Source of the DNA: an uncultured Gammaproteobacteria bacterium
Lineage (GTDB): Bacteria; Patescibacteriota; Microgenomatia; 2-02-FULL-39-11
Assembly (NCBI GenBank): GCA_964544585.1
Contig: CAZJBV010000002.1
Location: 3,468 to 67,467 of the forward strand
Reading direction: 5' to 3'
DNA length: 64,000 bases
The notes below the pieces were generated by a model. It was not told where the DNA came from. It saw only the letters and a program-made list of their open reading frames with translations, and made no database searches. Numbering within the stretch: the first letter of the stretch is position 1; every line of letters begins with the position of its first letter. A program made the position numbers and the translations under genes. Positions 45,899 through 61,090 of the stretch are shown piece by piece.

Positions 45899-47845
45899 AT
45901 GTGTGGCATCGCAGGATTATTTGATCTTTCAGGAAAAAATATTGATGGAAAACTACTCCACCGTATGGACACGGCCCTATCCCATAGAGGCCCAGACGGT
46001 CATGGAGAATATATAAACAAAAATGTAGGACTCTCAAATAGACGCCTGGCAATTATCGATCCCAGGCCCGAAGGCAATCAGCCTCTTGCATCCGCTGATG
46101 GAAATCTTGTCATCACTTTCAATGGTGAAATATTTAATTATAGCAATTTACGTAACGATTTAGAAAAATTAGGCTACACATTTAAAACAAAAACAGATAC
46201 GGAGACGATTCTTTTAGCATACCGACATTTTGGTAAATCTTGTGTCGAAAAATTACGGGGGCAATTCGCCTTTTGCATTTATGATAAAAAAAGGCAAGAA
46301 TTATTTCTGGCCCGTGATCAAATTGGCGTAAACCCTCTTTACTATACATTAGTCGGAAAAACGTTCTTTTTTGCTTCAGAATTAAAAGGTATTCTTGCGT
46401 CCACCCTCGTCAAGAAAGAGATAAACATCGAAGCACTTCACCATTTTCTTTCTATGTTTGTCATACCGCAACCATTAACCATTATAAAAGGAGTTTACAG
46501 TCTATTACCAGGCCATTTTATGAAAGTTACCCAAAAGGGGATATCAATACAAAAGTATTATTCTCTTCCGGTAGGAAACGTTGAATACAGTCACTTATCA
46601 TTTGATAATTTAAAAAATGAGTTAAAAAATAAGTTAATTTCCGCAGTTGAAAGAGCAAAAGTTGCCGATGTTCCCATCGGCGCATTTCTTTCCGGAGGAA
46701 TAGATTCTTCTCTTGTCGTCTCTCTTCTTGCCAAAACTACCAAAAAGCTCAAAACCTACAGTATATATACAGAAGGGGAAAGCTATTTCGATGAAAGGAA
46801 ATACGCCCAAAAAGTATCCCAAATGTACTCCACCAACCACCACGAATATACGGTCACTCAACCCGAGCTTGTAAAAGAATTTCCCCAAATAGTTTACTTT
46901 TTCGATCAACCCACAGGTGGCTCTCTTGAGACATACTTTGTTTCCAAATACGCAAGTCGCGATGTAAAAGTAGCTCTGTCAGGACTCGGAGGAGACGAAC
47001 TTTTTTCCGGCTACCACACCAATGTCTTAAATACGCTAAAATTTGCCGGCTTTTATAGGAAAATCCCCACCAAAATTCGCCAAACTTTAATTGACGTCTT
47101 AAAAGCTATCCCTTTAGAAAATCGTATGAAAAAAACTATTACAATTGCCGACAGTTTTCTAAGTCTTCCTACACCCCTCTCGCGACTACTTTTTCTCTAT
47201 TTTACCTTCTCCGAAAGAGAAAAGGATAAACTCTATTCAGCAAATTTTAAAAAAGAAGCAAGGAAATACAACACGGAAAATTACTTCAGCCAAATAGAAA
47301 GGGAAATTCCCACAAAAAATCCGGTTGACTTATTTTCATACATTGACCTCAATTCATATACCCGTGACGACCTACTCACTGGTATGAATATGTCAAGTAT
47401 GTCCCATTCTCTGGAATCACGAGTTCCTCTACTTGATGTAGATCTCCTAGATTTTGCCTCCCGTATTCCCCCAAAATATAAATACTTAAATGGTCAAGGA
47501 AAATATATCCTCAAAGAGACTGCCAGAGAGTATCTTCCAAATGAAATTATAGACAGGAAAAAAGTTGGCTTTGCCATTCCCAGAATTAATTACATGAAAG
47601 ACATGCTTTACCCCCATATTCAAAATGTCTTGCGACCAGAATCCATAAAAAAAAGGGGTTTATTTAGAAGTAAGTATGTCAATAAAATAGTTTCGGATTT
47701 TTATAACCAGTCAAAAGGCAGAATGCTTTGGAGTGAGCATCTCCGCGTCTGGAGTCTGTTTGTATTCGAATTATGGTGTCGACTTTATATAGATAGTAAA
47801 GAAATTAGAAAGCCAACCAGCTCACTAGAAGAATTATGCGCATAA
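45899..47845 (+). CDS. asnB: Asparagine synthetase B-type glutamine amidotransferase (likely sugar/uronate amidotransferase in this context)
   Basis: N-terminal MCGIAG (Ntn Cys2). AFLSGGIDSS PP-loop. 648 aa. Confidence 0.8.
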   Translation: MCGIAGLFDLSGKNIDGKLLHRMDTALSHRGPDGHGEYINKNVGLSNRRLAIIDPRPEGNQPLASADGNLVITFNGEIFNYSNLRNDLEKLGYTFKTKTDTETILLAYRHFGKSCVEKLRGQFAFCIYDKKRQELFLARDQIGVNPLYYTLVGKTFFFASELKGILASTLVKKEINIEALHHFLSMFVIPQPLTIIKGVYSLLPGHFMKVTQKGISIQKYYSLPVGNVEYSHLSFDNLKNELKNKLISAVERAKVADVPIGAFLSGGIDSSLVVSLLAKTTKKLKTYSIYTEGESYFDERKYAQKVSQMYSTNHHEYTVTQPELVKEFPQIVYFFDQPTGGSLETYFVSKYASRDVKVALSGLGGDELFSGYHTNVLNTLKFAGFYRKIPTKIRQTLIDVLKAIPLENRMKKTITIADSFLSLPTPLSRLLFLYFTFSEREKDKLYSANFKKEARKYNTENYFSQIEREIPTKNPVDLFSYIDLNSYTRDDLLTGMNMSSMSHSLESRVPLLDVDLLDFASRIPPKYKYLNGQGKYILKETAREYLPNEIIDRKKVGFAIPRINYMKDMLYPHIQNVLRPESIKKRGLFRSKYVNKIVSDFYNQSKGRMLWSEHLRVWSLFVFELWCRLYIDSKEIRKPTSSLEELCA

Positions 47846-48993: not shown

Positions 48994-49830
48994 ATGAAAA
49001 AAGATAAAATCCAGACCGTAGTAATAACCCCGAATAATAGCTGGAATATTTTCAACTTAAAAGAAATTTTAGATTATCGCGAACTAATTTATATCTTTTC
49101 CTGGCGGGATCTCAAAGTTAAGTACAAGCAAACCCTGTTAGGAATTATCTGGGTAGTATTTCAGCCACTCATTAGCATGATTATATTTACAGTTTTATTT
49201 GGAAACCTGGCCAAAGTCCAATCTGGCAATCTTCCCTACTCCCTATTTGTTCTCATAGGACTGGTTTTTTGGAATTTTTTTTCCGGATCACTTACCAGCA
49301 TAAATGATAGTCTCCTGGCAAATGAAAATATAATTAAAAAAGTTTATTTTCCCAAAATTATACTTCCACTGGCATCATTATTAACCAATTCAGTAGATTT
49401 TATTATCAATACAATTATAGTTATTATATTTGCCATAATTTTAGGCTATCCACCGGGGTTAAATTTTATTATTATTTATCCATTTCTTTTCATACTTGCC
49501 GCCTTTTCCATTCTCGGAATTGGACTATTTATGTCTTCATTAAACGTCAAGTATCGCGATGTCCGCTATATCTTACCCTTTTTTGTGCAAATATTATTCT
49601 TTTTTACGCCGATCATCTATCCCACCTCAATCGTTGCGACCGCGAAAAAATATATTTTGGCTTTAAATCCTATGACTACGGTCATTGAAGGAGCAAGATT
49701 TATTTTCGATCCAGCCTCAAAAGTAAATATCCAGTTTGCCGCCATATCATTATTATCACTAATCATTATCTTTGCCGTCGGCCTTTGGCATTTTAATAAA
49801 ACCGAGAGATTTATCGCCGATATTGTCTAA
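48994..49830 (+). CDS. ABC-2 type polysaccharide exporter permease (Wzm/TagG-like)
   Basis: 278 aa, 6 TM. ..RDLKVKYKQTLLGI.W....P. is the conserved N-terminal box of Wzm/TagG. Confidence 0.75.
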   Translation: MKKDKIQTVVITPNNSWNIFNLKEILDYRELIYIFSWRDLKVKYKQTLLGIIWVVFQPLISMIIFTVLFGNLAKVQSGNLPYSLFVLIGLVFWNFFSGSLTSINDSLLANENIIKKVYFPKIILPLASLLTNSVDFIINTIIVIIFAIILGYPPGLNFIIIYPFLFILAAFSILGIGLFMSSLNVKYRDVRYILPFFVQILFFFTPIIYPTSIVATAKKYILALNPMTTVIEGARFIFDPASKVNIQFAAISLLSLIIIFAVGLWHFNKTERFIADIV

Positions 49831-49840
49831 TTCTAAAAAA

Positions 49841-51115
49841 ATGGAACCAATAATTGAAGTAAACAATCTGTCGAAAAAATACAAAATTGGCAGAATCATG
49901 CCTTATTATTCGTTACGAGACGATATTATGAACTTTTTCCATAAACCAAAAGACTTATTAAATAAGGGTCAAAATAAGAATAACTCAAAGGATGAATTCT
50001 GGGCTTTAAAAAATGTCTCTTTCAAAATCATGCCGGGCGAAGTAATTGGAATAATTGGCAAAAATGGTGCCGGCAAGTCTACTCTTCTCAAGATTCTAAG
50101 CAGAATCACGCCCCCCACAGAAGGTAAGGCCATAATTCGCGGGAAACTGGCAAGCCTCCTAAATGTCGGTACAGGCTTTCATCCCGAACTAACCGGAAGA
50201 GAAAATATTTACCTCAATGGTGTAATTTTAGGCATGAAGGGAAAAGATATTAGAAAAAAGTTAGAGAAAATTATCGATTTTGCCGAAATAGAAAAATTTA
50301 TTGACACACCCGTCAAATATTATTCTTCAGGAATGTATATTAGACTTGCCTTCGCGGTCGCTTCACATCTTGAACCGGACATTCTCCTTATTGATGAAGT
50401 ATTGGCCGTCGGTGATTTTGGCTTTCAGAAAAAGTGCCTCAAGAAAATGGGCGAAATTCAGAAAGAAGGAAGAACAATCCTTCTCGTTTCACATGACATG
50501 TCTGCCATAGAATCATTAGCCAACGGTGTAATTTTATTCGTCAATGGCAAAACTAAAGGAATCACTACAGTCGACAAAGGCGTCGATAAATATCTTCATG
50601 TCCAAAAAAGTATTTTATCTCCACATTTCACTCCAGTTAGATTCGCCACCGATAGAAATGCATATATCATCGAGGCTAATATTATTAACAGAGAAGGCAA
50701 TAAGACTACTCAAATACCCGTCTTTGAACCCTTTTTTGTAGAAATTGTTTGGCAAAATAAAAAGGGAGTTCCGGTAACACCAAATTTCGCCATAGACAAT
50801 CAAAACGGCACAAGAGTAATGGTTGCGGGGGATAATCCTATCGATTGGGACGGAAAGAAAAAAAGAAAAAAAGGAAGATATATAAGTAGGGCCAAAATAC
50901 CAGCAAATTTGTTAAACTCCAATACTTATTTTGTTCACATATCTTTGGATACTGCGCTACCATTCAAAAAAAGTTATGACAATTATAAAGAAGCTCTTTC
51001 TTTCTCCATCCTCGATCCCATGGACGAACGAAGTATAGCCAGGGGCGCTTTTCAACACCTAAGAAAGGAATACGCGCTCTGGTCGGCATTAGAATGGACT
51101 TATAAAAAAATATGA
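49841..51115 (+). CDS. ABC polysaccharide exporter ATP-binding protein (Wzt/TagH-like) with about 170-aa C-terminal extension (putative glycan-binding domain)
   Basis: Walker A GKNGAGKSTLLKIL. LSGG-equivalent YSSGMYIRLAFA. Walker B LLIDEVLAVGD. Start taken at MEPIIEVNNL (the ORF track begins at 49772, overlapping the permease). Confidence 0.75.
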   Translation: MEPIIEVNNLSKKYKIGRIMPYYSLRDDIMNFFHKPKDLLNKGQNKNNSKDEFWALKNVSFKIMPGEVIGIIGKNGAGKSTLLKILSRITPPTEGKAIIRGKLASLLNVGTGFHPELTGRENIYLNGVILGMKGKDIRKKLEKIIDFAEIEKFIDTPVKYYSSGMYIRLAFAVASHLEPDILLIDEVLAVGDFGFQKKCLKKMGEIQKEGRTILLVSHDMSAIESLANGVILFVNGKTKGITTVDKGVDKYLHVQKSILSPHFTPVRFATDRNAYIIEANIINREGNKTTQIPVFEPFFVEIVWQNKKGVPVTPNFAIDNQNGTRVMVAGDNPIDWDGKKKRKKGRYISRAKIPANLLNSNTYFVHISLDTALPFKKSYDNYKEALSFSILDPMDERSIARGAFQHLRKEYALWSALEWTYKKI

Positions 51116-52212
51116 TTTCAATCTTTAATACTTATATAGACAAAAATGCAGCTAAAATAGTAAAACATACGCTGGATTCAACATTTATAAGCGAAGGAAA
51201 AGCTGTCAAGGAATTCGAAGCTGCATTATCTAATAAATTAGGCTGGATAAATCCCTTGACAGTAAATAGCGGCACAAGCGCTCTTCATTTGGCTCTAGCT
51301 ACCATCGGCATAAAAGGCGGAGATGAAGTCATTATTCCACCCCAAACGTTTATTGCCACAGGCCTTGCCGTTTTATATCAAGGGGCAAAACCAGTTTTTG
51401 CCGATATAGACTATATGACAGGAAATATCGATACCGAATCCATAAAATCCAAAATAACTCAAAAAACAAAAGCCATAATTCCAGTTCATTGGGGAGGGTA
51501 TCCTTGTGATATGGACGAAATATTAAAAATTGCCCATGAGTATAACCTCATTATCGTTGAAGACGCAGCCCATGCCTTAGGTGCAGAATATAAAAAAAAG
51601 CCAATTGGCTCAATTTCGCCTCTAACCTGTTTTTCTTTTCAAGCCATAAAACATGTTACTACGGCAGATGGAGGAGCCATCTGTTTTAAAGATAAAAATC
51701 TCTATCAAAAAGCTTTTCGTCTGCGCTGGTTTGGCATAGACAGAGATAAAGATAAATCATCAATTTTGGGCGAAAGACAGTATAATCTCCACGAAATTGG
51801 TTTTAAGTACCACATGAATGATTATGAAGCCTCCCTTGGCCTAGCCAATCTCGAATCTATAAACAAACGATTAAGAAAAAGAAGAAAAATAGCAAAACAA
51901 TATAGGGAAAGTTTGGGAAAGATAAGTGGCATTAAGTTGTTTGACTATCGTCAAGACAGAGAAAGCGCCTATTGGCTATTTGGGATGCATGTCGAAAAAA
52001 GGAATGATTTTATTAAAGCTATGAAATCAAAGAACATAACAGTTTCTGTTGTCCACCAAGGTATTGATAGAAATGATATCTTTGGAGGGTTAAGAAAAGA
52101 CCTCCCCAATCAAAGACTATTCGATAAGACTCAAATACACATCCCAGTGCACGAAGGTTTAACTCCGCCTCAAGTACAATATATAATCAATTCTATTAAA
52201 AAAGGGTGGTAG
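51112..52212 (+). CDS. DegT/DnrJ/EryC1/StrS family PLP-dependent sugar aminotransferase
   Basis: ..NSGTSALHLAL...GIKGGDEVI.PP.TFIAT..AV.Y.GAKPVFADID.. and the downstream ..F.A.K catalytic Lys region. Confidence 0.8.
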   Translation: MISIFNTYIDKNAAKIVKHTLDSTFISEGKAVKEFEAALSNKLGWINPLTVNSGTSALHLALATIGIKGGDEVIIPPQTFIATGLAVLYQGAKPVFADIDYMTGNIDTESIKSKITQKTKAIIPVHWGGYPCDMDEILKIAHEYNLIIVEDAAHALGAEYKKKPIGSISPLTCFSFQAIKHVTTADGGAICFKDKNLYQKAFRLRWFGIDRDKDKSSILGERQYNLHEIGFKYHMNDYEASLGLANLESINKRLRKRRKIAKQYRESLGKISGIKLFDYRQDRESAYWLFGMHVEKRNDFIKAMKSKNITVSVVHQGIDRNDIFGGLRKDLPNQRLFDKTQIHIPVHEGLTPPQVQYIINSIKKGW

Positions 52213-52219
52213 GTACAAA

Positions 52220-53176
52220 ATGGATTTCTTTTTTTTACATTCTTCCAAACTTATTCAAAGCCAATTAATACTTTTGCAAAAAATGAAGAAAGATAATGAT
52301 AAAGCTAAAGCTCCTTTCAGACCCACTCCGATGTGGAAAGAGATTGGGCGGCAGATTGAAAAAGAATTTCACAAGATAGGTATTGAAATAGCAGAACAGC
52401 AAATATACAATACTATGTTTTCTCAAAGCCTTCCTTCCAATAAACGATATTTTCGCTACGCGCTATGGATGTTATATAAAATTGTAAAAAAAAAGGACAA
52501 GTTTGAATTATTGAAGAAAGTACCATCTACTATTGGTATAGATTCAGGTTTAGCTTATGAATTTGAAGGGATCGTTGTTAATTGGGATCTTTTGATATCA
52601 ATTGATAATCTTTACTCAATTTACGAAATTGATAAACGAATTTTCACAAAGCCACTTATCTTTGTAGATTTGGGTTCCGGTTGGGGTAGATTAGGTTATG
52701 TATTAAAGTCTATAAACAAAAAATGTGTGTATATCGCTCTTGATCTTCCTGAAGCATTACTTATATGTATTACAAGATTAAGTAAATTATTTTCTAAACA
52801 AAAAATACTTTCATATGAAAAGTTACAAACTCAAAGATCGTGGACTAAAGATCAATTGCTATCTTATGATCTAGCATTTGGTGGCCCACAAGATTTAGAG
52901 CGTTGTATGAATAAATCCATAGATGTACTCGTAAATATAGGGAGCTTTCAGGAAATGACTCAACCTCAAGTCAATGCCTACTTAAAACTGATTAACCGCA
53001 AATTAAAAGGTGTTTTCTATACTTCACAATATTGGCAACCTCCACGGATAGCTAAAAAATATGATGCAATTGAAGGATATAACAGCTATCGATTTCCAGT
53101 AACATGGAAAAGGAAGTATTTAAGAAACATATCATACTCCGAAAGATACTTTGAAACTGGATACACTGCATATTGA
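52220..53176 (+). CDS. Class I SAM-dependent methyltransferase (putative sugar O-methyltransferase)
   Basis: ..FVDLGSGWGRLGYVL.. (motif I). Start uncertain. Confidence 0.5.
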   Translation: MDFFFLHSSKLIQSQLILLQKMKKDNDKAKAPFRPTPMWKEIGRQIEKEFHKIGIEIAEQQIYNTMFSQSLPSNKRYFRYALWMLYKIVKKKDKFELLKKVPSTIGIDSGLAYEFEGIVVNWDLLISIDNLYSIYEIDKRIFTKPLIFVDLGSGWGRLGYVLKSINKKCVYIALDLPEALLICITRLSKLFSKQKILSYEKLQTQRSWTKDQLLSYDLAFGGPQDLERCMNKSIDVLVNIGSFQEMTQPQVNAYLKLINRKLKGVFYTSQYWQPPRIAKKYDAIEGYNSYRFPVTWKRKYLRNISYSERYFETGYTAY

Positions 53177-53197
53177 CTAAAATTACTAAAATGAATT

Positions 53198-53443
53198 ATG
53201 GCTGAGACAAATAACAAAATTAAAAGGCTAAAAAGAATATTCTCGACTGTTTTAGATATCCCGCAAGATTCGATAACTCAAAACACCAAGCAGGAAAATA
53301 TTGGCAGTTGGGATTCGCTCAATCACCTTCAATTGATTATGGCAATTGAACAGGAATTTAAGGTAAAATTTGATATTCCCAAAATACCCTCTTTGACCTC
53401 ATTTACTTCCATAATAAAAGAACTAAATCATGTCAATCGATAA
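53198..53443 (+). CDS. Acyl carrier protein
   Basis: 81 aa. ..IGSWDSLNHLQLIMAIEQEF.. carries the phosphopantetheine-attachment Ser in a DSL motif. Confidence 0.75.
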   Translation: MAETNNKIKRLKRIFSTVLDIPQDSITQNTKQENIGSWDSLNHLQLIMAIEQEFKVKFDIPKIPSLTSFTSIIKELNHVNR

Positions 53444-54371
53444 GAAACTTATTCAAAAATTAAGGAATTTAAATAGAGGCATTAAGATTCGCAAACTACC
53501 CCTTGCGGAAGCTTCAATCTTTGTCAAGTGTATGAACAATTACTATTCACGCAAAAAAACAAATGATTATTTTAGATGGCAGTTTTACTCATATCCAAAG
53601 TCTATATATTTCGGTGCATTCGATAAAAAAAGATATATTGGAGGTTTTGGTATACAACTTCAGAAAGTTAAGTATTATAACGATATAGTCATTGTCGGAA
53701 AGGGCCTAGATTTAATTGTAGATCCTCATTATCAAAATAGAGGCATAGGCGCACTTCTTGTTTTAAATTGTGAGAAATGGGCAAAGGAAAAAAAAGCATC
53801 TGCCATAATGACTTTATCCAATATCAATGGACAAAGACTTCTATCGAGAATGAACTATAAATTCAAAACTATATACCAAATGGAAAAGAATTTAAAAGGA
53901 AGAATCAAGAAATTTAATTTATCCAAATATCATAAAATAAAGGCAAAACGGAATGAAAAGTTTTATTTCCTAAAAAATGATCAATGGTATACCTGGAGAT
54001 TTTTCCAAAACCCAGAATACAAATATTCGCAAATTAATATATCAGATGAACTCAGGGTTTTCGTCAAGATTTTCAAAGATCCTGAAACTCAAAAATCATT
54101 TGGAGACATCGTTGAAGTAAGTAATACTAAAAATATAGATCTTTTATGGAAAGCATACACAGAAGCTGAAAGATTTTTCAAACAAAAGTCTGTTTCCTCA
54201 ATCACTACCTGGGCATTACCAAATACACTAAATTTTAAAATCACCGGAAGGTTGGGATTTAAAGAGGTAGCAAAGCAGAGATATTTCTGTATTCGTATCT
54301 TAAATAAGAACATTGATCTTGAGAATTTTGATTCTTGGTTTCTAATGCAGTCAGATTCAGAAATATATTAG
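53430..54371 (+). CDS. GNAT-fold acyltransferase (putative ACP-dependent N-acyltransferase)
   Basis: ..LIVDPHYQNRGIGALLVLNCEKWAKE.. (Q/R-x-x-G-x-G/A motif). 313 aa. 14-nt overlap with the ACP gene. Confidence 0.5.
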   Translation: MSIDKKLIQKLRNLNRGIKIRKLPLAEASIFVKCMNNYYSRKKTNDYFRWQFYSYPKSIYFGAFDKKRYIGGFGIQLQKVKYYNDIVIVGKGLDLIVDPHYQNRGIGALLVLNCEKWAKEKKASAIMTLSNINGQRLLSRMNYKFKTIYQMEKNLKGRIKKFNLSKYHKIKAKRNEKFYFLKNDQWYTWRFFQNPEYKYSQINISDELRVFVKIFKDPETQKSFGDIVEVSNTKNIDLLWKAYTEAERFFKQKSVSSITTWALPNTLNFKITGRLGFKEVAKQRYFCIRILNKNIDLENFDSWFLMQSDSEIY

Positions 54372-54378
54372 AACTCAT

Positions 54379-54726
54379 ATGAACCAATCAGTAGGTACAG
54401 ACATTGTTAAAAATAAAAGAGTAATTGAATTATTCAATAAATATAAGGATAATTTTTTAGAGAAGATTCTAACTCCGGAAGAAGTAACAAGATTCAAAAA
54501 AAATAACAATATCCAAAGTTTGGTCGGAACTTTTGCCGCAAAAGAAGCAACGATAAAAGCACTCCATGATTTAGGATTTACTGAAATCACCATGCAGGAT
54601 ATAGTAATAATATCTCGGGCAAACTCATCTCCGCTGGCGTTCGTTAAGTCTAATGTAAAAATTCATATTTCCATAAGCCACGAAACAGAGTATACTATTG
54701 CAATTGCTTTATGCACAACCACATGA
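54379..54726 (+). CDS. acpS: Holo-ACP synthase (4'-phosphopantetheinyl transferase, AcpS type)
   Basis: 115 aa. VGTDIV...R...........F.....T.EE........N.....G.FAAKEA.IKAL............I..........ISISHE..Y..A.A. Confidence 0.7.
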   Translation: MNQSVGTDIVKNKRVIELFNKYKDNFLEKILTPEEVTRFKKNNNIQSLVGTFAAKEATIKALHDLGFTEITMQDIVIISRANSSPLAFVKSNVKIHISISHETEYTIAIALCTTT

Positions 54727-55649
54727 AAATACTTATAACCGGCGGCCATGGTTTTATCGGTAAACACTTAATAAGTGAGTTAAAAAAAAGGGCTTTAAAT
54801 TCAGAAATCATTCCATTATCAAGGAGGGATGGCTTTGATTTAAGGGACCTAAAAATCACCCAAAAATACGTAAAAAAAATAAAGCCGGATTTTATTTTTA
54901 ACCTTTCCTCTCATGTAGGCAGCGTTCACTATTCAACAATACACGCCGCTGACATCATTTATGACAATACAGAAATGTCTTTGAATCTCTACAAAGCAGT
55001 ACAAGAATATGCACCGCTTGCAAAGATAATAAACCCATTGTCTAATTGCTCTTACCCCGGTGATGCTGACATTCATTATGAACCAGACTGGTGGAAGGGA
55101 GAAGTGCACGACAGTGTCATTGCCTCCGGAAATTCAAGGCGGATGCTATATGTTATATCAAAGTGTTTTAATATGCAGTATGGCATAAAAACATATAATT
55201 TCCTCGTTCCAAACTCATTTGGTCCAGGCGACTATACAGATCCGAATAAAACGCATGCCCTAAATGGCATGATCATCCGCATGCTTAAAGCGCACAAAAA
55301 TAAAGAAAAAATTTTTGAAATCTGGGGAACGGGAAAACCAATAAGGGAATGGGGGTACGTAAAAGACATTGTCAGGATTCTTAGCAAAAGTTTAACATTA
55401 AAGACAGATTTAATTTATCCAGTAAATATAGCCCAAAATAAAGGCTATTCAATAAAAGAATCTGCCCATATGATAAAAGAAGCCATAGGTTTTAAAGGGA
55501 AAATTGTCTTTAATACAAAATATCAGGATGGCGCAGCCAGAAAAATCTTGGATAATAGAAGATTCAAAAAAATTTTCCCTAATTTTATGTTTACGGATCA
55601 TAAACAGGGGATAGAAGAGACAATCAAGTACTATAATAAAGTTTTATGA
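54711..55649 (+). CDS. NAD-dependent epimerase/dehydratase family protein (fucose-synthase-like SDR)
   Basis: KILITGGHGFIGKHL Rossmann motif. 312 aa. Confidence 0.6.
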   Translation: MHNHMKILITGGHGFIGKHLISELKKRALNSEIIPLSRRDGFDLRDLKITQKYVKKIKPDFIFNLSSHVGSVHYSTIHAADIIYDNTEMSLNLYKAVQEYAPLAKIINPLSNCSYPGDADIHYEPDWWKGEVHDSVIASGNSRRMLYVISKCFNMQYGIKTYNFLVPNSFGPGDYTDPNKTHALNGMIIRMLKAHKNKEKIFEIWGTGKPIREWGYVKDIVRILSKSLTLKTDLIYPVNIAQNKGYSIKESAHMIKEAIGFKGKIVFNTKYQDGAARKILDNRRFKKIFPNFMFTDHKQGIEETIKYYNKVL

Positions 55650-55666
55650 TATGAATCTTATAAATC

Positions 55667-57241
55667 ATGTTGCAAAAGCTATTCATAATTTTGGCTTTTC
55701 TTCTCTTAGGAATATTTTTTCACTTTATTCCCAATAAAGGAATTCCCTTAAATAGCGACGTCACCTGGATCTTCCGCCTGCAAACAGTTAATGATGCTAA
55801 TCTCCAAAAATCTATCCCTTCTGGCTTAAGACTGATGGGTGCATTTAAACAGAATTTTTGGCAATATTTCATCGACTGGTATCAGCTAACTGGACGTTGG
55901 AATATTTTTGATATTGCCTCATTTCGTCTTTTAGCCATCATAGGAGGAAACAATGCAGATATATGGCGTTTATTTTATATCATTATATTAAGTGGCAGTG
56001 TGAGTCTATTCTATCTAATATCTAAGGAATTAAAAATACCAACTCTCATCTCATTATTCCTTTCTCTAGGATTATTTTTCTATCCACTGGATGCCTGGAC
56101 AGATCATAAAACAGCCGAACCAAAAGCCTTGCTTTTTTTACTTATAGCCATTTATTCATCTTTGAAATGGAAACATCTTCTTGGATCAATTACAGCAAGT
56201 TTGGCTATGCTTTTTTCTATCTTATCAAAAGAGTCGTTCATAATTTTCTGGCTTATTATCCCAGCCATTTCTTTTACCCAAATAAAAATAAGGAAAAAGA
56301 GCTGGAAAGATTTTAATTATTTTTTATTTCCCCACTTAGCAAGCCTTTCTTTAATCTTATTCTATGTAATATTTCTAAAATTGAATTTTCCCCAAGATAC
56401 TCGCGGCTATATTTTAACCAATGCGAATAATGTGATTCCTTTTTTTATATTTTTTCAGAATTATATTTATCAATTATTTCAAGGATTTATTATTCCAAAG
56501 CCCATTATTTATCAAGTAGGACTTCTCTTTCTAACTTTATTAATTCTGATAAAAGCACATCTCAAAATCAAAAAGAAATATTTTTTTGAATATATAAAAA
56601 GATTAAATTTTATACTTTTAGGAACTTTGATAATAACTATAGTATTGCACGGAATGATTTATTATCTAACCGGACGCAATATCTCCGGTAGATATGTAAT
56701 TCCGGCAAATTATATTGCTCTATTAACTATAGTTTTACTTTTTAAACCAATCTTAATAGAAAGTTTAAAGAATATCAGAAGAAAAAAAATGTTTGTCATG
56801 GTAGTTACCCCTCTTTTTTTAATATTCATAATTACTTCAATAAAAATTAGAATTTTACCAAACGCAGCTCAAAATAGGTTAGACCAGGATAAATGGCAAG
56901 GATTAATCGAAGAAGTATCCCAAAAGGCTCCCACCAATAGTCATATTGTCTTAAAATTTGCCGAGCCATATATGATTGAAACCGCTCAAAGTCTTGAAGC
57001 AAATACACTTCTTCGAGGTCGATACGATTTAATCTATCACTTGGAATTTAAAGATACTCAGGCTTATCAACAAGACTCCGGATTTCTGAAATATTTAGTG
57101 GATTCTTATAATAAGTCGAGAAAATTAATTCCTCCCCAAGGAAATCGAAATATTTTATACGTTAAAGCAGATAGAAAAGGTGGAAATGGATTGCCATATC
57201 TCAATTACGAACTGTCACTGGATTCATCTCTACATCCATAG
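55667..57241 (+). CDS. Polytopic membrane protein, hypothetical
   Basis: 524 aa, TM-rich throughout. No motif recognised. Confidence 0.3.
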   Translation: MLQKLFIILAFLLLGIFFHFIPNKGIPLNSDVTWIFRLQTVNDANLQKSIPSGLRLMGAFKQNFWQYFIDWYQLTGRWNIFDIASFRLLAIIGGNNADIWRLFYIIILSGSVSLFYLISKELKIPTLISLFLSLGLFFYPLDAWTDHKTAEPKALLFLLIAIYSSLKWKHLLGSITASLAMLFSILSKESFIIFWLIIPAISFTQIKIRKKSWKDFNYFLFPHLASLSLILFYVIFLKLNFPQDTRGYILTNANNVIPFFIFFQNYIYQLFQGFIIPKPIIYQVGLLFLTLLILIKAHLKIKKKYFFEYIKRLNFILLGTLIITIVLHGMIYYLTGRNISGRYVIPANYIALLTIVLLFKPILIESLKNIRRKKMFVMVVTPLFLIFIITSIKIRILPNAAQNRLDQDKWQGLIEEVSQKAPTNSHIVLKFAEPYMIETAQSLEANTLLRGRYDLIYHLEFKDTQAYQQDSGFLKYLVDSYNKSRKLIPPQGNRNILYVKADRKGGNGLPYLNYELSLDSSLHP

Positions 57242-58898
57242 TCGAAAGATCACCCGCTTCTGTATTCGTTTCTCTCGCGCGCAATACCCGCCTCATAATC
57301 TTCCCACTTCTTGTCTTTGGCAATTTCTTTACAAACTCTATCTCCCGCGGCACTTCAAATGAAGCCAACTTTTCTCTCACATGACGAACCAGAGCCCGCT
57401 TCAAGGCGCTCGTTGGCCGCACTCCAGGTTTAAGTAGTACAAAAGCTTTTACAATCTGACCGAAAATTTTATCTGGCTTACCAATTACACCGGCTTCAGC
57501 CACCCCCGGATGTGCTACCAGCACACTTTCTATTTCAAAGGGACTAATACGTTCCGCCGCACTTTTGATCATATCGTCTTGCCTCCCTTGAAACCAGAAA
57601 TATCCATCATTATCCTGATAAGCCGTATCACCAGATATATACCATTTATTTTTAAAATAAGCCGAAAATTTTTTTGGGTTATTCCATATTGCTTTCATCA
57701 GCCCCGGCCATGGGGTTCTAACCGCCAAGTGGCCGATTTGTCCGCGTGGTAATTCCTTTCCTCTGTCATCAATAATCGCCGCATAAATACCCGGCAAGCT
57801 CTTTCCCATAGAGCCCTTTTTTATTGGCAGACAACGGTAATTATTGATTAATTGATGTCCATTTTCGGTCATATACCATGAATCATGGATAGGAATACCC
57901 AAATTTTCCATTGTCCAGTCGATAAGACTAGGGTTAAGAGGTTCCCCGGCGCTGACAATATGCCGCAGAGTTGATACTTTCTTTCGGTTAAGCGGTACGT
58001 TGTAGTAACGAAGTAATCTAAATACAGTAGGAGTGCTGTACCATACATTTATTTTCATTTTAGACATGAACTTCACCCATTCAATAGGCTGAAATGGTCC
58101 CTGGTAAATATGAGCGGCAATCCCTAATAAAAATGGAGCAAAGAAATTATAGACCATGCCAGTAACCCATCCCGGATCACCTGTATTCCAATAACAATCA
58201 GTAGGTTTTAAATCCAAAACATACTTTGCCGTTACCAGATGACCGATCATAGCTCGATTAGGAAGAAGTACGCCCTTTGGTTTTGCCGTCGAACCTGAAG
58301 TATAGTGAATGATAAAAGGCGTTTCTAAACTGCCAAAATGTATGGTCGAGCCATTAGTCTTAGAATGAAACTTATCAATATTTTTATCCGTCAAAATATG
58401 CTTCACAGAGGGAATAGAGGCAAAGGAGACGTTTTTAATAAGATCGGAAGTCGTATAAAGCCAATTAGCAGTACAATCGTTCAAGCGATCTGAAATTGCA
58501 TCCCGACCAAAAGCCTGAAACAATGGGACAACAATAGCTCCACACTTTATTGCTGAAAGCATAACAACAACATATTGAATTGATTTTGCAGCATAGAGCC
58601 CAAAACGATCGCCCGCTTTTAGCCCAGATAAGTGTAAATGACTAGCCAAACTGCTTGTCTTTTCAGAAAGTTCTGCAAAAGTAATACGTTCAATTTTCCC
58701 AGAAGGAAGTTGAGTAATAATTGCCCACTTTTTTCCGTTACCTTTTAAAACTTGATAATCAGTAATTTCATAAGCATAATTTACCCGTCCGCTCTTATAA
58801 AAAGAGAATTCTTTATGCCAATCCCGCCAAGAAAAATTATTTCTTGTCTCATCATAATTAACCAGGTTTGGCCGCGTATTCAGAATGTCTGATTTCAT
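57201..58898 (-). CDS. AMP-forming acyl-CoA/acyl-carrier synthetase (acetyl-CoA synthetase-like adenylating enzyme)
   Basis: ..IIHYTSGSTAKPKGVL.. (AMP-binding motif I). ..YGPTE-like and ..GD.A..D.DGY.W..GR.DD.IK..G.RI core. The only minus-strand gene. Start taken at MKSDILN (rc ATG 58898); the ORF track extends to 58946. Confidence 0.7.
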   Translation of the reverse strand: MKSDILNTRPNLVNYDETRNNFSWRDWHKEFSFYKSGRVNYAYEITDYQVLKGNGKKWAIITQLPSGKIERITFAELSEKTSSLASHLHLSGLKAGDRFGLYAAKSIQYVVVMLSAIKCGAIVVPLFQAFGRDAISDRLNDCTANWLYTTSDLIKNVSFASIPSVKHILTDKNIDKFHSKTNGSTIHFGSLETPFIIHYTSGSTAKPKGVLLPNRAMIGHLVTAKYVLDLKPTDCYWNTGDPGWVTGMVYNFFAPFLLGIAAHIYQGPFQPIEWVKFMSKMKINVWYSTPTVFRLLRYYNVPLNRKKVSTLRHIVSAGEPLNPSLIDWTMENLGIPIHDSWYMTENGHQLINNYRCLPIKKGSMGKSLPGIYAAIIDDRGKELPRGQIGHLAVRTPWPGLMKAIWNNPKKFSAYFKNKWYISGDTAYQDNDGYFWFQGRQDDMIKSAAERISPFEIESVLVAHPGVAEAGVIGKPDKIFGQIVKAFVLLKPGVRPTSALKRALVRHVREKLASFEVPREIEFVKKLPKTRSGKIMRRVLRARETNTEAGDLSTMDVEMNPVTVRN

Positions 58899-59006
58899 TA
58901 CATGATATAAAATACCATAGTAATCTATAACCAGCAATAGAAACAAAAGACCTGTATTTTTGAAATATTTAGTGGATTCATATAATATGTCAAGAAGAGC
59001 AAATTA

Positions 59007-59807
59007 ATGACGATGATAAAAAAACGTATATCATTTTTATTGGCTACCAAAAACAGAGGCAAGTTTTTGAAAAAAGCATTTGCGTATATTAAAAAAATCA
59101 AAAGCAGAGATGACGAATTAATTATTATCGATGGTTTATCGACCGATAATACCAAAGCAGTCATCAAAAAATATAAAGATTGGGTAGACATATTTATATC
59201 CGAAAAAGACCAAAGCGAAGCTCACGCTTTAAACAAGGGTATTCTTTTATCCCAAGGTAAATATATTAAATTTCTTACCGACGATGACATCATTTATAAA
59301 AGCGGATTAGAAAAGGCAGTTAGGATAATGGAAGAAAATCCTTATGTTGATGTACTATTATGCGGTGGCACAAGACTTGTCGAGGGGAAAAGGAGAAAGT
59401 TTTATGTCAATCCAGGCACAAATTATGGTAAAGATGTCGCAGACGTTTTTAAATACGGAGCATGTGGCATTGGGCTTGTTATCAGAAAAGATATTTTTGC
59501 CAAAGTGGGACTACTAAATAGCAAATCATTTGCCCTAGACATTGATTTTCTCACCCAGGCAATAAGTGGCGGCGCTAACGTCAGATTTTGCCGAATTCAC
59601 CTTTTCTACCACCCAATACTTCCACATAGCGGTACAATTAAAAGCTATCAAAAATGGAAGGCAGATAAAGAAAAAATAAAAAAGAGATATGGCTTAGAAA
59701 ATATAGTTCCCGGCAAAGAAGTTATATCTATCATAAAAGTCTTAAAGCAAAAAATATTAAATAAAAAAAAGCAAACTAAATATATTTGGGATGGTGGTTT
59801 CAGCTAA
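59007..59807 (+). CDS. Family 2 glycosyltransferase (GT2)
   Basis: ..ISFLLATKNRGKFLKKA......S.DDELIIIDGLSTDNT.. Confidence 0.7.
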   Translation: MTMIKKRISFLLATKNRGKFLKKAFAYIKKIKSRDDELIIIDGLSTDNTKAVIKKYKDWVDIFISEKDQSEAHALNKGILLSQGKYIKFLTDDDIIYKSGLEKAVRIMEENPYVDVLLCGGTRLVEGKRRKFYVNPGTNYGKDVADVFKYGACGIGLVIRKDIFAKVGLLNSKSFALDIDFLTQAISGGANVRFCRIHLFYHPILPHSGTIKSYQKWKADKEKIKKRYGLENIVPGKEVISIIKVLKQKILNKKKQTKYIWDGGFS

Positions 59808-61090
59808 TATTTATGAAGCGAATCGATATTTTATGGTTAATTGAACACGTTGCCAGAGAAATGGAAGTTGCCATAATAGCAAAATATTTCCTTGAAAAAA
59901 AATATAATTTTTCGGTAGAAATACGACATATTTATTTACATGCTGAAAATAATATGCACACAATTTATCCCCGCATTGTCTTATTGCCATTTTTTTATAA
60001 AGCAAAAGATTTAGCAGTAGAAGAGTATCTCAATCTTTGGAAAGATGCAATCTTTATCAACCTCGCCTGGGAACAAATGTTTTACAAAGCACACAAACTG
60101 ATCAAAGCTCCGCAAGATAAATGGGCAAGAGAAAAAGTTATCCATCACGCATGGGGAAAGTCATTTAAACAATATTTAATAGACCATGGTGTAAAAAAGA
60201 GAAATATTTTTTTCAACAGTAATCCAATATATGAGCTTTATTCCAACCCTCTGAAGAGGATCTATAAAACCAGAAAAGATCTTGCCAGAATATATAAAAT
60301 CCCTTTAAATAAAAAATGGATCTTTTTTCCTGAAAATTATAGATGGGCATTCTTAAGCCCGACAAAAAAGCAAAAATTTGCCTCAGAAGGCTTATCAACA
60401 AAAAATATTAAAAGTCTTTCAGCCTTTTGTAACAGCTCACTCTACGAAGTATTACATTGGTTTTTGGATAGAAAAAAAAGTAATTACATATTCATACTTC
60501 GACCGCGGCCAGCTACAACGAAACAACAGTTTATGAATATAATTAATAAGATAGCCGGAAAAATTCCCTCGGATGTATTTATCATAAAGAACGAATCAGT
60601 AAGAAATTGGGTTTTGGCAAGCGATGTGGTCGTTTCATCCTACAGTACGACACTTTTGGAGGCGTCAGTTGGGGAAAAACCAAGTTTTATTTTGGAGCCA
60701 AAGCCAATACATCCTTTACTTCGCTATAGTTGGTTCAAATTTATTAAAAGTATAAAAGCAAAAAGGGAACTCGATTCCATAATTGGAAGTAACCCAAATT
60801 CCAAAAATAAGTCATTACAAAAATGGATTGAAAAAGAATATTTTACCAATCCGACACCTATAAAAAACTTATGTAACTATATTGGAAAACTTTCAAGGAA
60901 AAATACCCAGACTATAAACCCTTTTCTCTTTCTTCGTGCGCGTACACTATCGTACTTGTTAAGAATAAGAAACTCTTTGTCAAAAAAACAGTATTTCAAC
61001 TACGAAACTCATGAGAACGATATATTTAATGTTTCTGATATTACAGAAATAAGCCAAAAGTGGAAACCAATATTAAAGATGTATGTCTAA
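59786..61090 (+). CDS. GT-B-like TagF/TagB-family (CDP-alditol phosphotransferase) or 'surface carbohydrate biosynthesis protein' family
   Basis: C-terminal ..ASDVVVSSYSTTLLEASVGEKPSFIL.. resembles the D.LITDYSS...D.....KP.IF box of TagF-like enzymes. 434 aa. Confidence 0.35.
   Translation: MGWWFQLIFMKRIDILWLIEHVAREMEVAIIAKYFLEKKYNFSVEIRHIYLHAENNMHTIYPRIVLLPFFYKAKDLAVEEYLNLWKDAIFINLAWEQMFYKAHKLIKAPQDKWAREKVIHHAWGKSFKQYLIDHGVKKRNIFFNSNPIYELYSNPLKRIYKTRKDLARIYKIPLNKKWIFFPENYRWAFLSPTKKQKFASEGLSTKNIKSLSAFCNSSLYEVLHWFLDRKKSNYIFILRPRPATTKQQFMNIINKIAGKIPSDVFIIKNESVRNWVLASDVVVSSYSTTLLEASVGEKPSFILEPKPIHPLLRYSWFKFIKSIKAKRELDSIIGSNPNSKNKSLQKWIEKEYFTNPTPIKNLCNYIGKLSRKNTQTINPFLFLRARTLSYLLRIRNSLSKKQYFNYETHENDIFNVSDITEISQKWKPILKMYV

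What the first reader, a model, noticed from the sequence alone, without database searches (positions are those of the whole stretch)
51112..58946. Dedicated ACP - AcpS - GNAT acyltransferase - aminotransferase - methyltransferase module converging on an acyl-AMP ligase inside the glycan cluster
Consecutive genes are: DegT aminotransferase (51112), SAM methyltransferase (52220), an 81-aa acyl carrier protein with a DSL phosphopantetheine site (53198), a GNAT-fold acyltransferase overlapping the ACP gene (53430), its own holo-ACP synthase (54379), an SDR epimerase (54711), and on the opposite strand an AMP-forming acyl synthetase (57201-58898). A private ACP with its own AcpS next to a sugar aminotransferase implies ACP-dependent N-acylation of an amino sugar, for example a hydroxyacyl or unusual acyl decoration. 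Organisms of this type usually lack fatty-acid synthesis. This ACP system is therefore probably devoted to glycan modification and fed by the ligase from scavenged acids.
Basis: inference. Interest (0 to 1): 0.65.

Follow-up and report, generated by a model that had tools for sequence, protein, structure and literature searches.

The report
Carrier-protein-fed amino-sugar acylation cassette
Inside a large surface-sugar gene cluster, probably from a tiny-genome (CPR-type) bacterium, sits a compact gene set that most likely decorates an amino sugar with an acyl group handed over from its own small carrier protein, and comparison with relatives shows this carrier/transferase pair is a recurring, unstudied cassette that here has lost its usual loading enzyme.

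Summary

The 313-aa GNAT belongs to an uncharacterised family with a predicted tandem-GNAT fold. In 17 of 18 long related loci it sits with orthologues of the window's DegT aminotransferase, and in most with the Fcl-like SDR. It is therefore a sugar enzyme, not a protein acetyltransferase.

The window's GNAT falls in a sub-clade (bootstrap 87). In 11 of its 13 members the gene is preceded by a carrier-protein pathway, typically FkbH–ACP(–MaoC–FabG)–GNAT(–AcpS). The window's ACP scores 83.5 bits against a profile of those FkbH-linked ACPs, against 29.5 for E. coli AcpP. It also shares their WDSLxH motif and the 14-nt ACP/GNAT overlap. ACP-dependent N-acylation of an amino sugar is thus the best reading. 

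The ligase link is unproven. No related locus has the ligase. It is an AcsA-type acetyl-CoA-synthetase homologue that keeps two CoA-site arginines, although its acyl pocket is altered (Val→Ala, Trp→Tyr). The window has no FkbH, so the ACP loader is unknown. I rate it a new variant of a known kind, of moderate interest.

The parts
48994..51115 (+). Wzm (48994-49830) and Wzt (about 49841-51115), an ABC-2 glycan exporter. Wzt overlaps DegT1 by 4 nt.
   Evidence: Pfam ABC2_membrane, ABC_tran and Wzt_C on the identical contig L001. Orthologues at 47% and 53% identity lie next to DegT1/SDR/GNAT in the Parcubacteria locus L012.
51112..52212 (+). DegT1, a PLP-dependent sugar aminotransferase, probably acting at C4 of an NDP-4-keto-6-deoxyhexose.
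   Evidence: PF01041, E 3e-99. Best solved relatives are 4zwv/4xau, CalS13 and GDP-perosamine synthase. Orthologues at 52-65% identity lie beside the GNAT in 17 of 18 long related loci.
52220..53176 (+). SAM methyltransferase of the NanM type, a putative sugar O-methyltransferase.
   Evidence: TIGR04371, 89.9 bits against a cut-off of 44. No homologue in any related locus. FkbH-type loci carry an unrelated Methyltransf_3/24 enzyme at the same position.
53198..53443 (+). Dedicated 81-aa carrier protein with motif WDSLNH (Ser40). It is basic, pI 9.2.
   Evidence: PF00550, 29.1 bits. Below all AcpP cut-offs. Scores 83.5 bits against an HMM built from 8 FkbH-linked ACPs, versus 29.5 for E. coli AcpP. 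Best solved relative is 2lml. pI.
53430..54371 (+). Tandem-GNAT N-acyltransferase (313 aa), the predicted amino-sugar N-acyltransferase that takes its acyl group from the ACP.
   Evidence: PF00583 covers residues 45-141 only. The family has 349 representatives. AF2 model pLDDT 91.7, with best fold matches to N-myristoyltransferase and Eis double-GNAT enzymes. Lies in a clade with the ACP-linked members, bootstrap 87.
54379..54726 (+). AcpS-type 4'-phosphopantetheinyl transferase (115 aa).
   Evidence: PF01648, 52.8 bits; TIGR00556, 66.7 bits against 45.35. A 30%-identical AcpS occupies the same position after the GNAT in locus L021.
54723..55649 (+). GDP-fucose-synthase-like SDR, an epimerase and/or 4-reductase acting on the nucleotide sugar.
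   Evidence: PF01370. NF047922, 133 bits, below its cut-off. Matches solved GDP-L-fucose synthases at E 3e-33. Orthologues at 38-60% identity lie beside the GNAT in most related loci.
55667..57241 (+). 524-aa polytopic membrane protein, the last gene of the plus-strand run. Its role is unknown; it may be a GT-C type transferase.
   Evidence: No Pfam or NCBIfam hit. A homologous N-terminus is present in the Daviesbacteria locus L011.
57201..58898 (-). AcsA-type AMP-forming short-chain acyl ligase (565 aa) with an altered acyl pocket: V245, T246, A317, Y342. A candidate but unproven supplier of the acyl group.
   Evidence: NF003313 acetate-CoA ligase, 649.5 bits against a cut-off of 729. PDB 9g79 at E 6e-160 and 46.7% identity. 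Pocket and CoA-site residues read from alignments to 9g79 and Salmonella Acs. No homologue in the 33 related loci.
59007..59807 (+). GT2 glycosyltransferase, the likely transferase for the modified sugar.
   Evidence: PF00535. Homologues lie next to or near the GNAT in L011 (57% identity), L013, L015, L016, L024 and L028.

Best explanation
Genes 51112-55649 form a packed operon segment that makes an N-acylated amino-(deoxy)hexose nucleotide for the glycan exported by Wzm/Wzt.

Proposed steps:
1. DegT1 puts an amino group on a keto-sugar nucleotide.
2. The 313-aa tandem-GNAT enzyme acylates that amine.
3. The Fcl-like SDR and the NanM-type methyltransferase tailor the sugar.
4. The GT2 at 59007 probably installs it.

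The acyl donor is most likely a thioester on the 81-aa carrier protein, whose gene overlaps the GNAT gene. The adjacent AcpS converts that protein to its holo form.

This ACP-GNAT pair descends from a cassette found elsewhere as FkbH-ACP(-MaoC-FabG)-GNAT(-AcpS). In that cassette an FkbH-domain enzyme loads a glyceryl unit on the ACP. In this window FkbH is absent, so the loading step is unresolved. Either the convergent AcsA-like ligase supplies a short acid (directly or through CoA), or a loader is encoded outside the 64 kb.

Shown: gene content, domain identities, conserved synteny and clade structure. Inferred: every catalytic step.
For: 1. A conserved DegT1-GNAT-SDR triad across Daviesbacteria, Parcubacteria, Elusimicrobia and Myxococcales MAGs and many metagenome contigs ties the GNAT to amino-sugar synthesis.
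2. In an NJ tree of 33 GNATs, a clade with bootstrap 87 holds the window's GNAT and every member preceded by ACP-pathway genes. That is 11 of 13 members, against 0 of 20 outside the clade (Fisher p about 4e-7, not corrected for phylogeny).
3. The neighbours in those loci are bona fide FkbH proteins (TIGR01686, 309 and 284 bits against a cut-off of 147), MaoC, FabG-like SDR and AcpS.
4. The window's ACP scores 83.5 bits on an HMM of the FkbH-linked ACPs. It shares WDSLxH, the 81-aa length and the 14-nt overlap with the GNAT seen in L017 and L020.
5. AcpS follows the GNAT in L021 as well.
6. The L019 order DegT1-MT-VOC-FkbH-ACP-GNAT-NUDIX-SDR mirrors the window's DegT1-MT-ACP-GNAT-AcpS-SDR.
7. 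In these cassettes the GNAT is the only transferase available to unload the ACP.
8. Chemistry of this kind is known: N-(2,3-di-O-methylglyceroyl) pseudaminic acid in C. jejuni 11168, whose glycosylation locus has an fkbH-domain gene (PMC3068675, PMC7099621).
Against: - No member of this GNAT family has been studied biochemically, so all links rest on gene neighbourhood.
- Most family members (type A loci) have no ACP nearby and presumably use an acyl-CoA.
- Two members of the ACP-linked clade (L022, L025) also lack an ACP.
- The window's GNAT has a textbook CoA-type P-loop, QNRGIG.
- The window has no FkbH, MaoC, FabG or VOC in any of its 571 six-frame ORFs. The ACP therefore has no evident loader, and it could be a relic.
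- The sugar and its nucleotide carrier were not identified.
Confidence: 0.55

Rival explanations
1. One reading: the convergent ligase adenylates a scavenged short-chain acid and loads it directly onto the holo-ACP, acting as an acyl-ACP synthetase. The GNAT then passes it to the amino sugar.
For: - The ligase is the only acyl-activating enzyme in the 64 kb.
- It is embedded, antisense, in an otherwise plus-strand glycan cluster, and it sits at the same place in a second sample.
- Its acyl pocket differs from true acetyl-CoA synthetases: Val386 is Ala and the almost invariant Trp414 is Tyr. It also scores below the acetate-CoA ligase equivalog cut-off (PMC10455477).
- FkbH, the usual loader, is missing, and the ACP has switched from acidic to basic, which may reflect a new partner.
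Against: - No ligase homologue occurs in any of the 33 related GNAT loci.
- It is 46.7% identical over its full length to a solved AcsA acetyl-CoA synthetase.
- It keeps the equivalents of Arg526 and of Arg584. The latter contacts the 3'-phosphate of CoA, a group that an ACP arm lacks (PMC10455477).
- It lies on the opposite strand and has its own promoter-like site.
- No AcsA-clade enzyme is known to me to load an ACP.
Confidence: 0.2
2. The GNAT is an ordinary acyl-CoA-dependent N-acetyl (or N-propionyl) transferase like its ACP-less relatives. The ligase supplies acetyl- or short acyl-CoA for this enzyme and for the LbH acetyltransferase at 62003. The ACP and AcpS are leftovers of a decayed FkbH cassette or serve another process.
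For: - Canonical QxxGxG CoA-binding loop in the window's GNAT.
- Type A loci, plus two clade members, have no ACP.
- No ACP loader in the window.
- The ligase is of the AcsA type and retains CoA-site arginines.
Against: - The ACP, GNAT and AcpS ORFs are intact and tightly coupled, with a 14-nt overlap and a 7-nt gap.
- The ACP keeps the Ser motif and the family signature at 83.5 bits.
- AcpS passes the domain cut-offs over its full length.
- The same ACP sequence occurs on 8 contigs from several samples, and only one 95% variant was found.
- Small genomes rarely keep useless genes (general knowledge).
Confidence: 0.25
3. The ACP, AcpS and ligase are a housekeeping system that activates scavenged fatty acids for membrane lipid synthesis and merely happen to lie in the glycan cluster.
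For: Organisms without fatty-acid synthesis still need activated acyl chains (general knowledge). The window contains no fab genes.
Against: - The ACP is far below the AcpP cut-offs (25.8 against 70.45 bits) and is basic.
- Its relatives sit in FkbH/glycan cassettes.
- The ligase belongs to the acetate/short-chain clade, not the long-chain clade.
- The ACP gene overlaps a sugar-pathway GNAT.
Confidence: 0.05
4. The GNAT is a protein lysine acetyltransferase that regulates the neighbouring AcsA-like ligase, as AcuA does for Bacillus AcsA.
For: The ligase keeps the acetylatable catalytic lysine, SGK533IMRR. The best solved match, 9g79, is an AcsA entry.
Against: - The GNAT family is syntenic with the DegT and SDR sugar genes in 17 of 18 long loci, and never with a ligase.
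- It is a 310-aa tandem GNAT, unlike AcuA (my recollection of AcuA as a roughly 210-aa single GNAT domain).
- It lies on the opposite strand, about 3 kb away.
Confidence: 0.03

Closest known systems
FkbH/FkbJ-type glyceryl-ACP pathway (methoxymalonyl-ACP and tetronate biosynthesis; FkbH domain TIGR01686)
   Same: Relatives of this ACP-GNAT pair sit directly behind an FkbH-domain protein, often with an O-methyltransferase of the FkbG-like Methyltransf_3 type. The window's ACP belongs to the same carrier subfamily.
   Different: The window has no FkbH. The acyl group goes to a sugar amine via a tandem GNAT, not into a polyketide. FkbH loading from 1,3-bisphosphoglycerate is taken from my knowledge of the literature and was not tested here.
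Campylobacter jejuni NCTC 11168 flagellin-glycosylation sub-cluster (fkbH-domain gene cj1302) and its N5-(2,3-di-O-methylglyceroyl) pseudaminic acid
   Same: It is a glycan locus that combines an FkbH-domain gene with an N-acyl group of glycerate origin plus O-methylation on an amino sugar (PMC7099621, PMC3068675, bioRxiv 10.64898/2026.04.20.719630). From memory, the locus also has ACP genes.
   Different: The transferase that attaches the acyl group in C. jejuni is not established. I could not test whether it is related to this GNAT. The sugar there is a nonulosonic acid, and no NeuB-type synthase is seen in the window.
NodF/NodE/NodA (Nod-factor N-acylation) and LpxD (lipid A)
   Same: An acyl group on a carrier protein (NodF is a dedicated ACP) is transferred to the free amine of an amino sugar. 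This is established knowledge, from memory.
   Different: NodA and LpxD have unrelated folds (NodA-specific; left-handed beta-helix) and use long fatty acyl chains made by FAS-type enzymes. Here the transferase is a tandem GNAT, and the relatives use FkbH.
Vibrio cholerae O1 rfbK-rfbO genes (tetronate N-acylation of perosamine; Morona et al. 1995, from memory)
   Different: That cluster also has reductase and dehydrogenase genes and a different acyltransferase. It was not compared by sequence here, and my literature search found no text to cite.
Bacillus-type acetyl-CoA synthetase AcsA (NF003313; PDB 9g79)
   Same: Full-length alignment at 46.7% identity. All ANL motifs, the catalytic Lys, and the Arg526 and Arg584 equivalents are present.
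   Different: It scores below the equivalog cut-off (649.5 against 729). Acetate-pocket Val386 is Ala, Trp414 is Tyr and Gly524 is Ala.
PDB 2lml, an atypical 'putative acyl carrier protein' (I believe this is Geobacter GmACP3, proposed to act in LPS synthesis; the identity of the entry is from memory)
   Same: Best solved match of the window's ACP (E 1e-7). It shares the W-D-S-L-x-H motif and scores 60.8 bits on the FkbH-linked ACP profile.
   Different: Its function is also unproven. The paper was not available to read.

Membership tests
Acyl carrier protein (PF00550) | PP-binding domain above the Pfam gathering score, with a Ser in a D-S-L motif at the start of helix II | tested here: met
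   29.1 bits against 20.8. The sequence reads GSWDSLNH.
Housekeeping AcpP (TIGR00517 / NF002148-51) | Score at or above the equivalog cut-off; strongly acidic protein | tested here: not met
   25.8 bits against a cut-off of 70.45, and all other AcpP models are also below cut-off. pI 9.2, against 4.05 for E. coli AcpP.
FkbH-associated WDSLxH carrier proteins (ad hoc family defined here) | Matches a profile built from ACPs that lie directly after an FkbH gene and before the GNAT | tested here: met
   83.5 bits, against 29.5 for AcpP and 15.9 for DltC.
FkbH-ACP glyceryl-loading cassette | An FkbH-domain (TIGR01686) protein encoded with the ACP | tested here: not met
   The FkbH HMM scored no hit better than E 0.17 on all 571 six-frame ORFs of the 64-kb window, and tblastn was negative. 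The rest of the genome was not available.
AcpS-type phosphopantetheinyl transferase | Single ACPS domain of about 120 aa above cut-off, with the GxD, KE(A)xxKA and SxSH motifs | tested here: met
   PF01648, 52.8 against 25. TIGR00556, 66.7 against 45.35. TIGR00516, 59.5 against 59.8, just short. The motifs GTDIV, FAAKEATIKA and SISHE are seen in the translation; their roles are from memory.
GNAT superfamily | Acetyltransf_1 domain above cut-off, with a Q/RxxGxG/A loop | tested here: met
   38.5 bits against 20.7, residues 45-141. The loop reads QNRGIG. The predicted fold is two GNAT-like halves, as in N-myristoyltransferase and Eis (TM about 0.6, about 10% identity).
Acyl-ACP-dependent acyltransferase (function) | Demonstrated use of acyl-ACP rather than acyl-CoA | not testable with these tools
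   Only gene-neighbourhood and clade evidence is available.
Acetate-CoA ligase AcsA (NF003313) | Score at or above the equivalog cut-off | tested here: not met
   649.5 bits against 729.
Acetate-CoA ligase AcsA (NF003313) | Acetate pocket Val310, Thr311, Val386, Trp414 (Salmonella numbering) | tested here: not met
   The window has V245, T246, A317, Y342. The Trp is 'almost completely conserved among Acs' (PMC10455477).
Acetate-CoA ligase AcsA (NF003313) | Catalytic Lys609 and CoA-site Arg526 and Arg584 | tested here: met
   K533, R450 and R508 align with these residues. The Arg191 equivalent could not be aligned reliably.
Acyl-ACP synthetase (AasS / FAAL-like carrier loaders) | Closer to known carrier-loading ligases than to CoA ligases | tested here: not met
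   All 25 listed NCBIfam hits are CoA ligases or synthetases, led by acetate-CoA ligase. The 60 listed solved matches are led by acetyl-CoA synthetases, and the only carrier-loading enzymes among them (an NRPS adenylation domain) score far lower. No dedicated phylogeny was run.
DegT/DnrJ/EryC1 sugar aminotransferase | PF01041 above cut-off; a specific equivalog (PseC, LegC, WecE and so on) above cut-off | tested here: inconclusive
   PF01041, 332.9 bits, is met. The best equivalog, PseC, scores 296.8 against 423.5 and is not met. The family is certain but the substrate is unknown.

The most novel reading that the evidence does not exclude
An AcsA-derived ligase with a widened pocket (Ala/Tyr) has been recruited in place of FkbH. 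It would load a scavenged short (hydroxy)acid directly onto a charge-reversed carrier protein. A tandem-GNAT enzyme would then use that carrier to N-acylate a nucleotide amino sugar. This would be a CoA-independent salvage route for glycan decoration, and the only use of ACP and AcpS in a bacterium without fatty-acid synthesis.
Probability: 0.15. Interest if true: 0.75.

Novelty: new variant of a known kind. Interest (0 to 1): 0.55.

Why it matters
Unusual N-acyl groups on surface amino sugars (glyceroyl, methylglyceroyl, hydroxybutyryl and others) shape antigenicity and phage and host recognition. The enzymes that attach them are mostly unknown.

This work points to a widespread, unstudied tandem-GNAT family as the sugar N-acyltransferase. 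One sub-clade of it is wired to a dedicated carrier protein, usually loaded by FkbH. That gives a concrete candidate for the transfer step in pathways that make N-glyceroyl-type sugars.

The window's version has no FkbH, a private AcpS, a basic ACP and a nearby AcsA-like ligase with a changed pocket, in what is probably a CPR bacterium. It would show what ACP and AcpS are for in organisms thought to lack fatty-acid synthesis.

Tried and rejected
- Word-index homology searches with the GNAT and the ACP returned only the query itself, plus one 95% variant for the ACP. A profile search returned 5 proteins.
- The 60-sequence GNAT alignment was too divergent for locus finding, so a 13-sequence subset was used instead.
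- tRNA and Rfam scans of the window found nothing.
- The promoter and terminator scan did not exceed shuffled controls.
- tblastn of the GNAT against plasmids found nothing.
- The GmACP3 paper was not held.
- Literature searches for FkbH with O-antigen or polysaccharide, and for the perosamine tetronate ACP, found nothing.
- GC and GC3 content do not mark the MT-ACP-GNAT-AcpS block as clearly foreign: 30.5-33% against 35-37% in the flanks.
- Clade-specific residues in the GNAT gave no clear ACP-docking signature.
- The AcuA-like protein acetyltransferase reading was rejected on synteny, and the housekeeping lipid ACP reading on family scores.

Full report
**Observation**

- DegT aminotransferase, 51112-52212: PF01041, E 3e-99.
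- Methyltransferase, 52220-53176: TIGR04371 'putative sugar O-methyltransferase', 89.9 bits against a cut-off of 44.
- ACP, 53198-53443: 81 aa, PF00550 29.1 bits, motif GSWDSLNH.
- GNAT, 53430-54371: 313 aa. Only residues 45-141 match PF00583.
- AcpS, 54379-54726: PF01648 52.8 bits, TIGR00556 66.7 bits.
- GDP-fucose-synthase-like SDR, 54723-55649.
- AMP-forming ligase, 57201-58898, on the minus strand.

The GNAT start codon lies 14 nt inside the ACP gene. From Wzt to the 524-aa membrane protein, the plus-strand genes are separated by 21 nt or less, or overlap. The ligase is convergent and overlaps the membrane-protein gene by 41 nt.

The whole 64-kb window is a plus-strand glycan cluster. It contains:
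- GT2 and GT4 glycosyltransferases and about ten tandem PMT_2-type paralogues;
- YfhO, a carbamoyltransferase, an RmlD-like protein and an AsnB-like protein;
- the Wzm/Wzt exporter;
- a second DegT with an LbH acetyltransferase.

It has no tRNA or Rfam feature. Identical genes occur on metagenome contigs from several runs of one project.

**What the GNAT is**

The word-index search found only the query itself. A full HMMER search of 1.84 billion representatives found 349 relatives, nearly all about 300 aa and aligned end to end. Seven columns are invariant, and the C-terminal half is conserved although no Pfam model covers it.

An AlphaFold model built on 60 relatives is confident (pLDDT 91.7, pTM 0.89). 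It shows two GNAT-like halves. The best solved matches are N-myristoyltransferases, Eis enzymes and two Enterococcus Eis-like proteins, all at about 10% identity and TM about 0.6. This is therefore an unstudied tandem-GNAT family with no close solved structure.

**Genomic context of the family**

I collected 33 loci that carry a family member:
- 3 by exact look-up;
- 5 from species genomes: Ca. Daviesbacteria, a Parcubacteria MAG, Elusimicrobia and two Myxococcales;
- 26 from metagenomes, one of which is the same contig as one of the species-genome loci.

I compared all of them with the window's proteins by tblastn.

Two patterns appear.
- **Type A:** a DegT1 orthologue (52-65% identity), the GNAT and the Fcl-like SDR orthologue (28-60% identity), often with a homologue of the window's GT2 at 59007, and no ACP. 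Of the 18 loci of 10 kb or more, 17 contain the DegT1 orthologue.
- **Type B:** the GNAT is preceded by a carrier-protein pathway.

The GNAT is a sugar-pathway enzyme, not a protein acetyltransferase.

The type B loci read as follows.

| Locus | Gene order |
|---|---|
| L019 | DegT1 - Methyltransf_3/24 - glyoxalase-fold - FkbH - ACP - GNAT - NUDIX - SDR |
| L027 | MT - FkbH - ACP - MaoC hotdog - FabG-like SDR - GNAT |
| L021 | FkbH - ACP - MaoC - FabG - GNAT - AcpS |
| L017, L018, L020, L023 | FkbH - ACP - GNAT |
| L024, L029 | FabG - GNAT |
| L016 | ACP tail - GNAT - MBOAT |

The FkbH assignments are firm: TIGR01686 at 309 and 284 bits against a cut-off of 147.

**Clade structure**

An NJ tree of the 33 GNATs places the window's protein in a clade with 87% bootstrap support. 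That clade contains every type B member plus two members without an ACP (L022, L025). Inside the clade, 11 of 13 members are linked to ACP-pathway genes. Outside it, 0 of 20 are. One outside locus (L008) has an ACP next to a glyoxalase-fold gene 9 kb away in the same cluster. Fisher's p is about 4e-7, but the loci are not phylogenetically independent, so this overstates the significance.

**The ACP and AcpS**

The ACP falls below every AcpP equivalog cut-off (25.8 bits against 70.45). Its best solved relative is the atypical ACP 2lml, which shares WDSLxH.

A profile built only from eight FkbH-linked ACPs gives these scores:
- the window's ACP, 83.5 bits;
- 2lml, 60.8 bits;
- E. coli AcpP, 29.5 bits;
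- DltC, 15.9 bits.

The 81-aa length and the 14-nt overlap with the GNAT are identical in L017 and L020. The window's ACP-GNAT pair therefore shares ancestry with the FkbH-type cassette. Unusually, the window's ACP is basic (pI 9.2, net charge +1.7), while its closest cassette relatives have a pI of about 4.5-5.

AcpS passes the domain cut-offs over its full length. A 30%-identical AcpS follows the GNAT in L021.

**What is missing**

No FkbH, MaoC, FabG, glyoxalase-fold or Methyltransf_3 homologue is present in any of the 571 six-frame ORFs of the window. The window's NanM-type methyltransferase has no counterpart in the related loci.

Compared with the Daviesbacteria locus, DegT1, the SDR and the GT2 are 57-60% identical but the GNAT is only 30% identical. 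It looks as if an MT-ACP-GNAT-AcpS block replaced a type A GNAT between DegT1 and the SDR. At the position where the window has AcpS, the Daviesbacteria locus has a formyltransferase.

**The ligase**

Its best family is acetate-CoA ligase NF003313, at 649.5 bits against a cut-off of 729. Its best solved match is the 572-aa acetyl-CoA synthetase 9g79 (E 6e-160; 46.7% identity over 544 positions).

I aligned it to Salmonella Acs.
- The acetate pocket Val310, Thr311, Val386, Trp414 reads V245, T246, A317, Y342 in the window.
[quoted passage not shown] The pocket is therefore altered, probably enlarged.
- The catalytic Lys (K533) and the equivalents of Arg526 (R450) and Arg584 (R508) are kept. Arg584 contacts the 3'-phosphate of CoA (PMC10455477).
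- Gly524 is Ala.

None of the 33 related loci has a ligase homologue. The ligase therefore looks like a short-chain acyl-CoA synthetase with a non-acetate preference. Its link to the ACP rests only on proximity and on the absence of another loader.

**Mechanism proposed**

1. DegT1 aminates an NDP-keto-deoxyhexose.
2. The tandem GNAT acylates the amine from acyl-S-ACP.
3. AcpS makes the ACP holo.
4. The SDR and the methyltransferase tailor the sugar.
5. The GT2 installs the sugar, and Wzm/Wzt export the polymer.

Gene identities and synteny are shown. All the chemistry is inferred. The source of the acyl group is open. It could be the ligase (acting directly or through CoA) or an unseen loader.

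The main rival is that the GNAT, which has a canonical QNRGIG CoA loop, simply uses an acyl-CoA, and that the ACP and AcpS are relics.

**Comparison with known systems**

Carrier-protein-dependent N-acylation of amino sugars is known for LpxD and for NodF/NodA, and is predicted for V. cholerae RfbK-O (all from memory). FkbH-plus-ACP genes are known in the C. jejuni 11168 flagellin glycosylation locus (PMC7099621). That organism makes N-(2,3-di-O-methylglyceroyl) pseudaminic acid (PMC3068675).

What differs here:
- the tandem-GNAT transferase family;
- its split into ACP-linked and ACP-free clades;
- in this window, an FkbH-less form with a private AcpS and a basic ACP.

The organism is probably a CPR/Patescibacteria bacterium. 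That inference rests only on the best synteny and identity matches, which are to Daviesbacteria and Parcubacteria MAGs.

**Verdict**

This is a new variant of a known kind. I rate the interest at 0.55.

Noticed in passing
window 53198-53443: The carrier protein is basic (pI 9.2, net +1.7 at pH 7), unlike E. coli AcpP (pI 4.05) and unlike its closest FkbH-linked relatives (pI about 4.5-5). Helix II lacks the usual acidic run. This may signal a change of partner enzymes.
   Followed up: partly
window 57201-58898 (-): The AcsA-like ligase has Ala for Val386, Tyr for the near-invariant Trp414 and Ala for Gly524 (Salmonella numbering). It keeps the catalytic Lys and two CoA-site Arg residues. The substrate is unknown.
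   Followed up: partly
window 10863-26635 and 29904-33237: A run of about ten to twelve tandem genes of roughly 540 aa. The two I scanned are PMT_2/PMT-type membrane glycosyltransferase paralogues, and a YfhO-like gene lies at 8590-10848.
   Followed up: no
window 62003-63669 and beyond 64000: There is a second amino-sugar branch. It comprises a NeuD/PglB/VioB-type LbH acetyltransferase, a second DegT (PseC-like, 308 bits, below cut-off) and an SDR that runs off the window end. Contig L042 shows a 320-aa Polysacc_synt_2-type SDR there.
   Followed up: partly
window 59786-61090: A 434-aa protein weakly matches TIGR04396 'surface carbohydrate biosynthesis protein' and the BFO_1060 glycosyltransferase family (about 65 bits, below cut-offs). 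That hints at a nonulosonic-acid-type transferase, yet no NeuB-type synthase was seen among the window genes I scanned.
   Followed up: no
L011 8929-9690 and 15128-16048 (Ca. Daviesbacteria): In the type A locus most similar to the window, a formyltransferase (PF00551) sits between the GNAT and the SDR, where the window has AcpS. A second formyltransferase-like gene follows the second DegT.
   Followed up: no
L016 1119-3416: In the closest GNAT relative, the ACP-GNAT pair is followed by what looks, by my reading of the translations, like a split MBOAT (AlgI/DltB-like) gene and a 334-aa protein that may be DltD/AlgJ-like. No family scan was run on them. They would suggest carrier-dependent O-acylation of a polymer as well.
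   Followed up: no
L008, L009, L010: Several type A loci combine the GNAT with a GHMP kinase, a nucleotidyltransferase, split transketolase genes and B12-radical-SAM enzymes. That suggests heptose or branched-sugar pathways.
   Followed up: no
window 39078-40766 and 45899-47845: A NodU-like carbamoyltransferase and an AsnB-type amidotransferase (TIGR03108-like, 499 bits, below cut-off) indicate further glycan decorations, namely carbamoylation and amidation.
   Followed up: no
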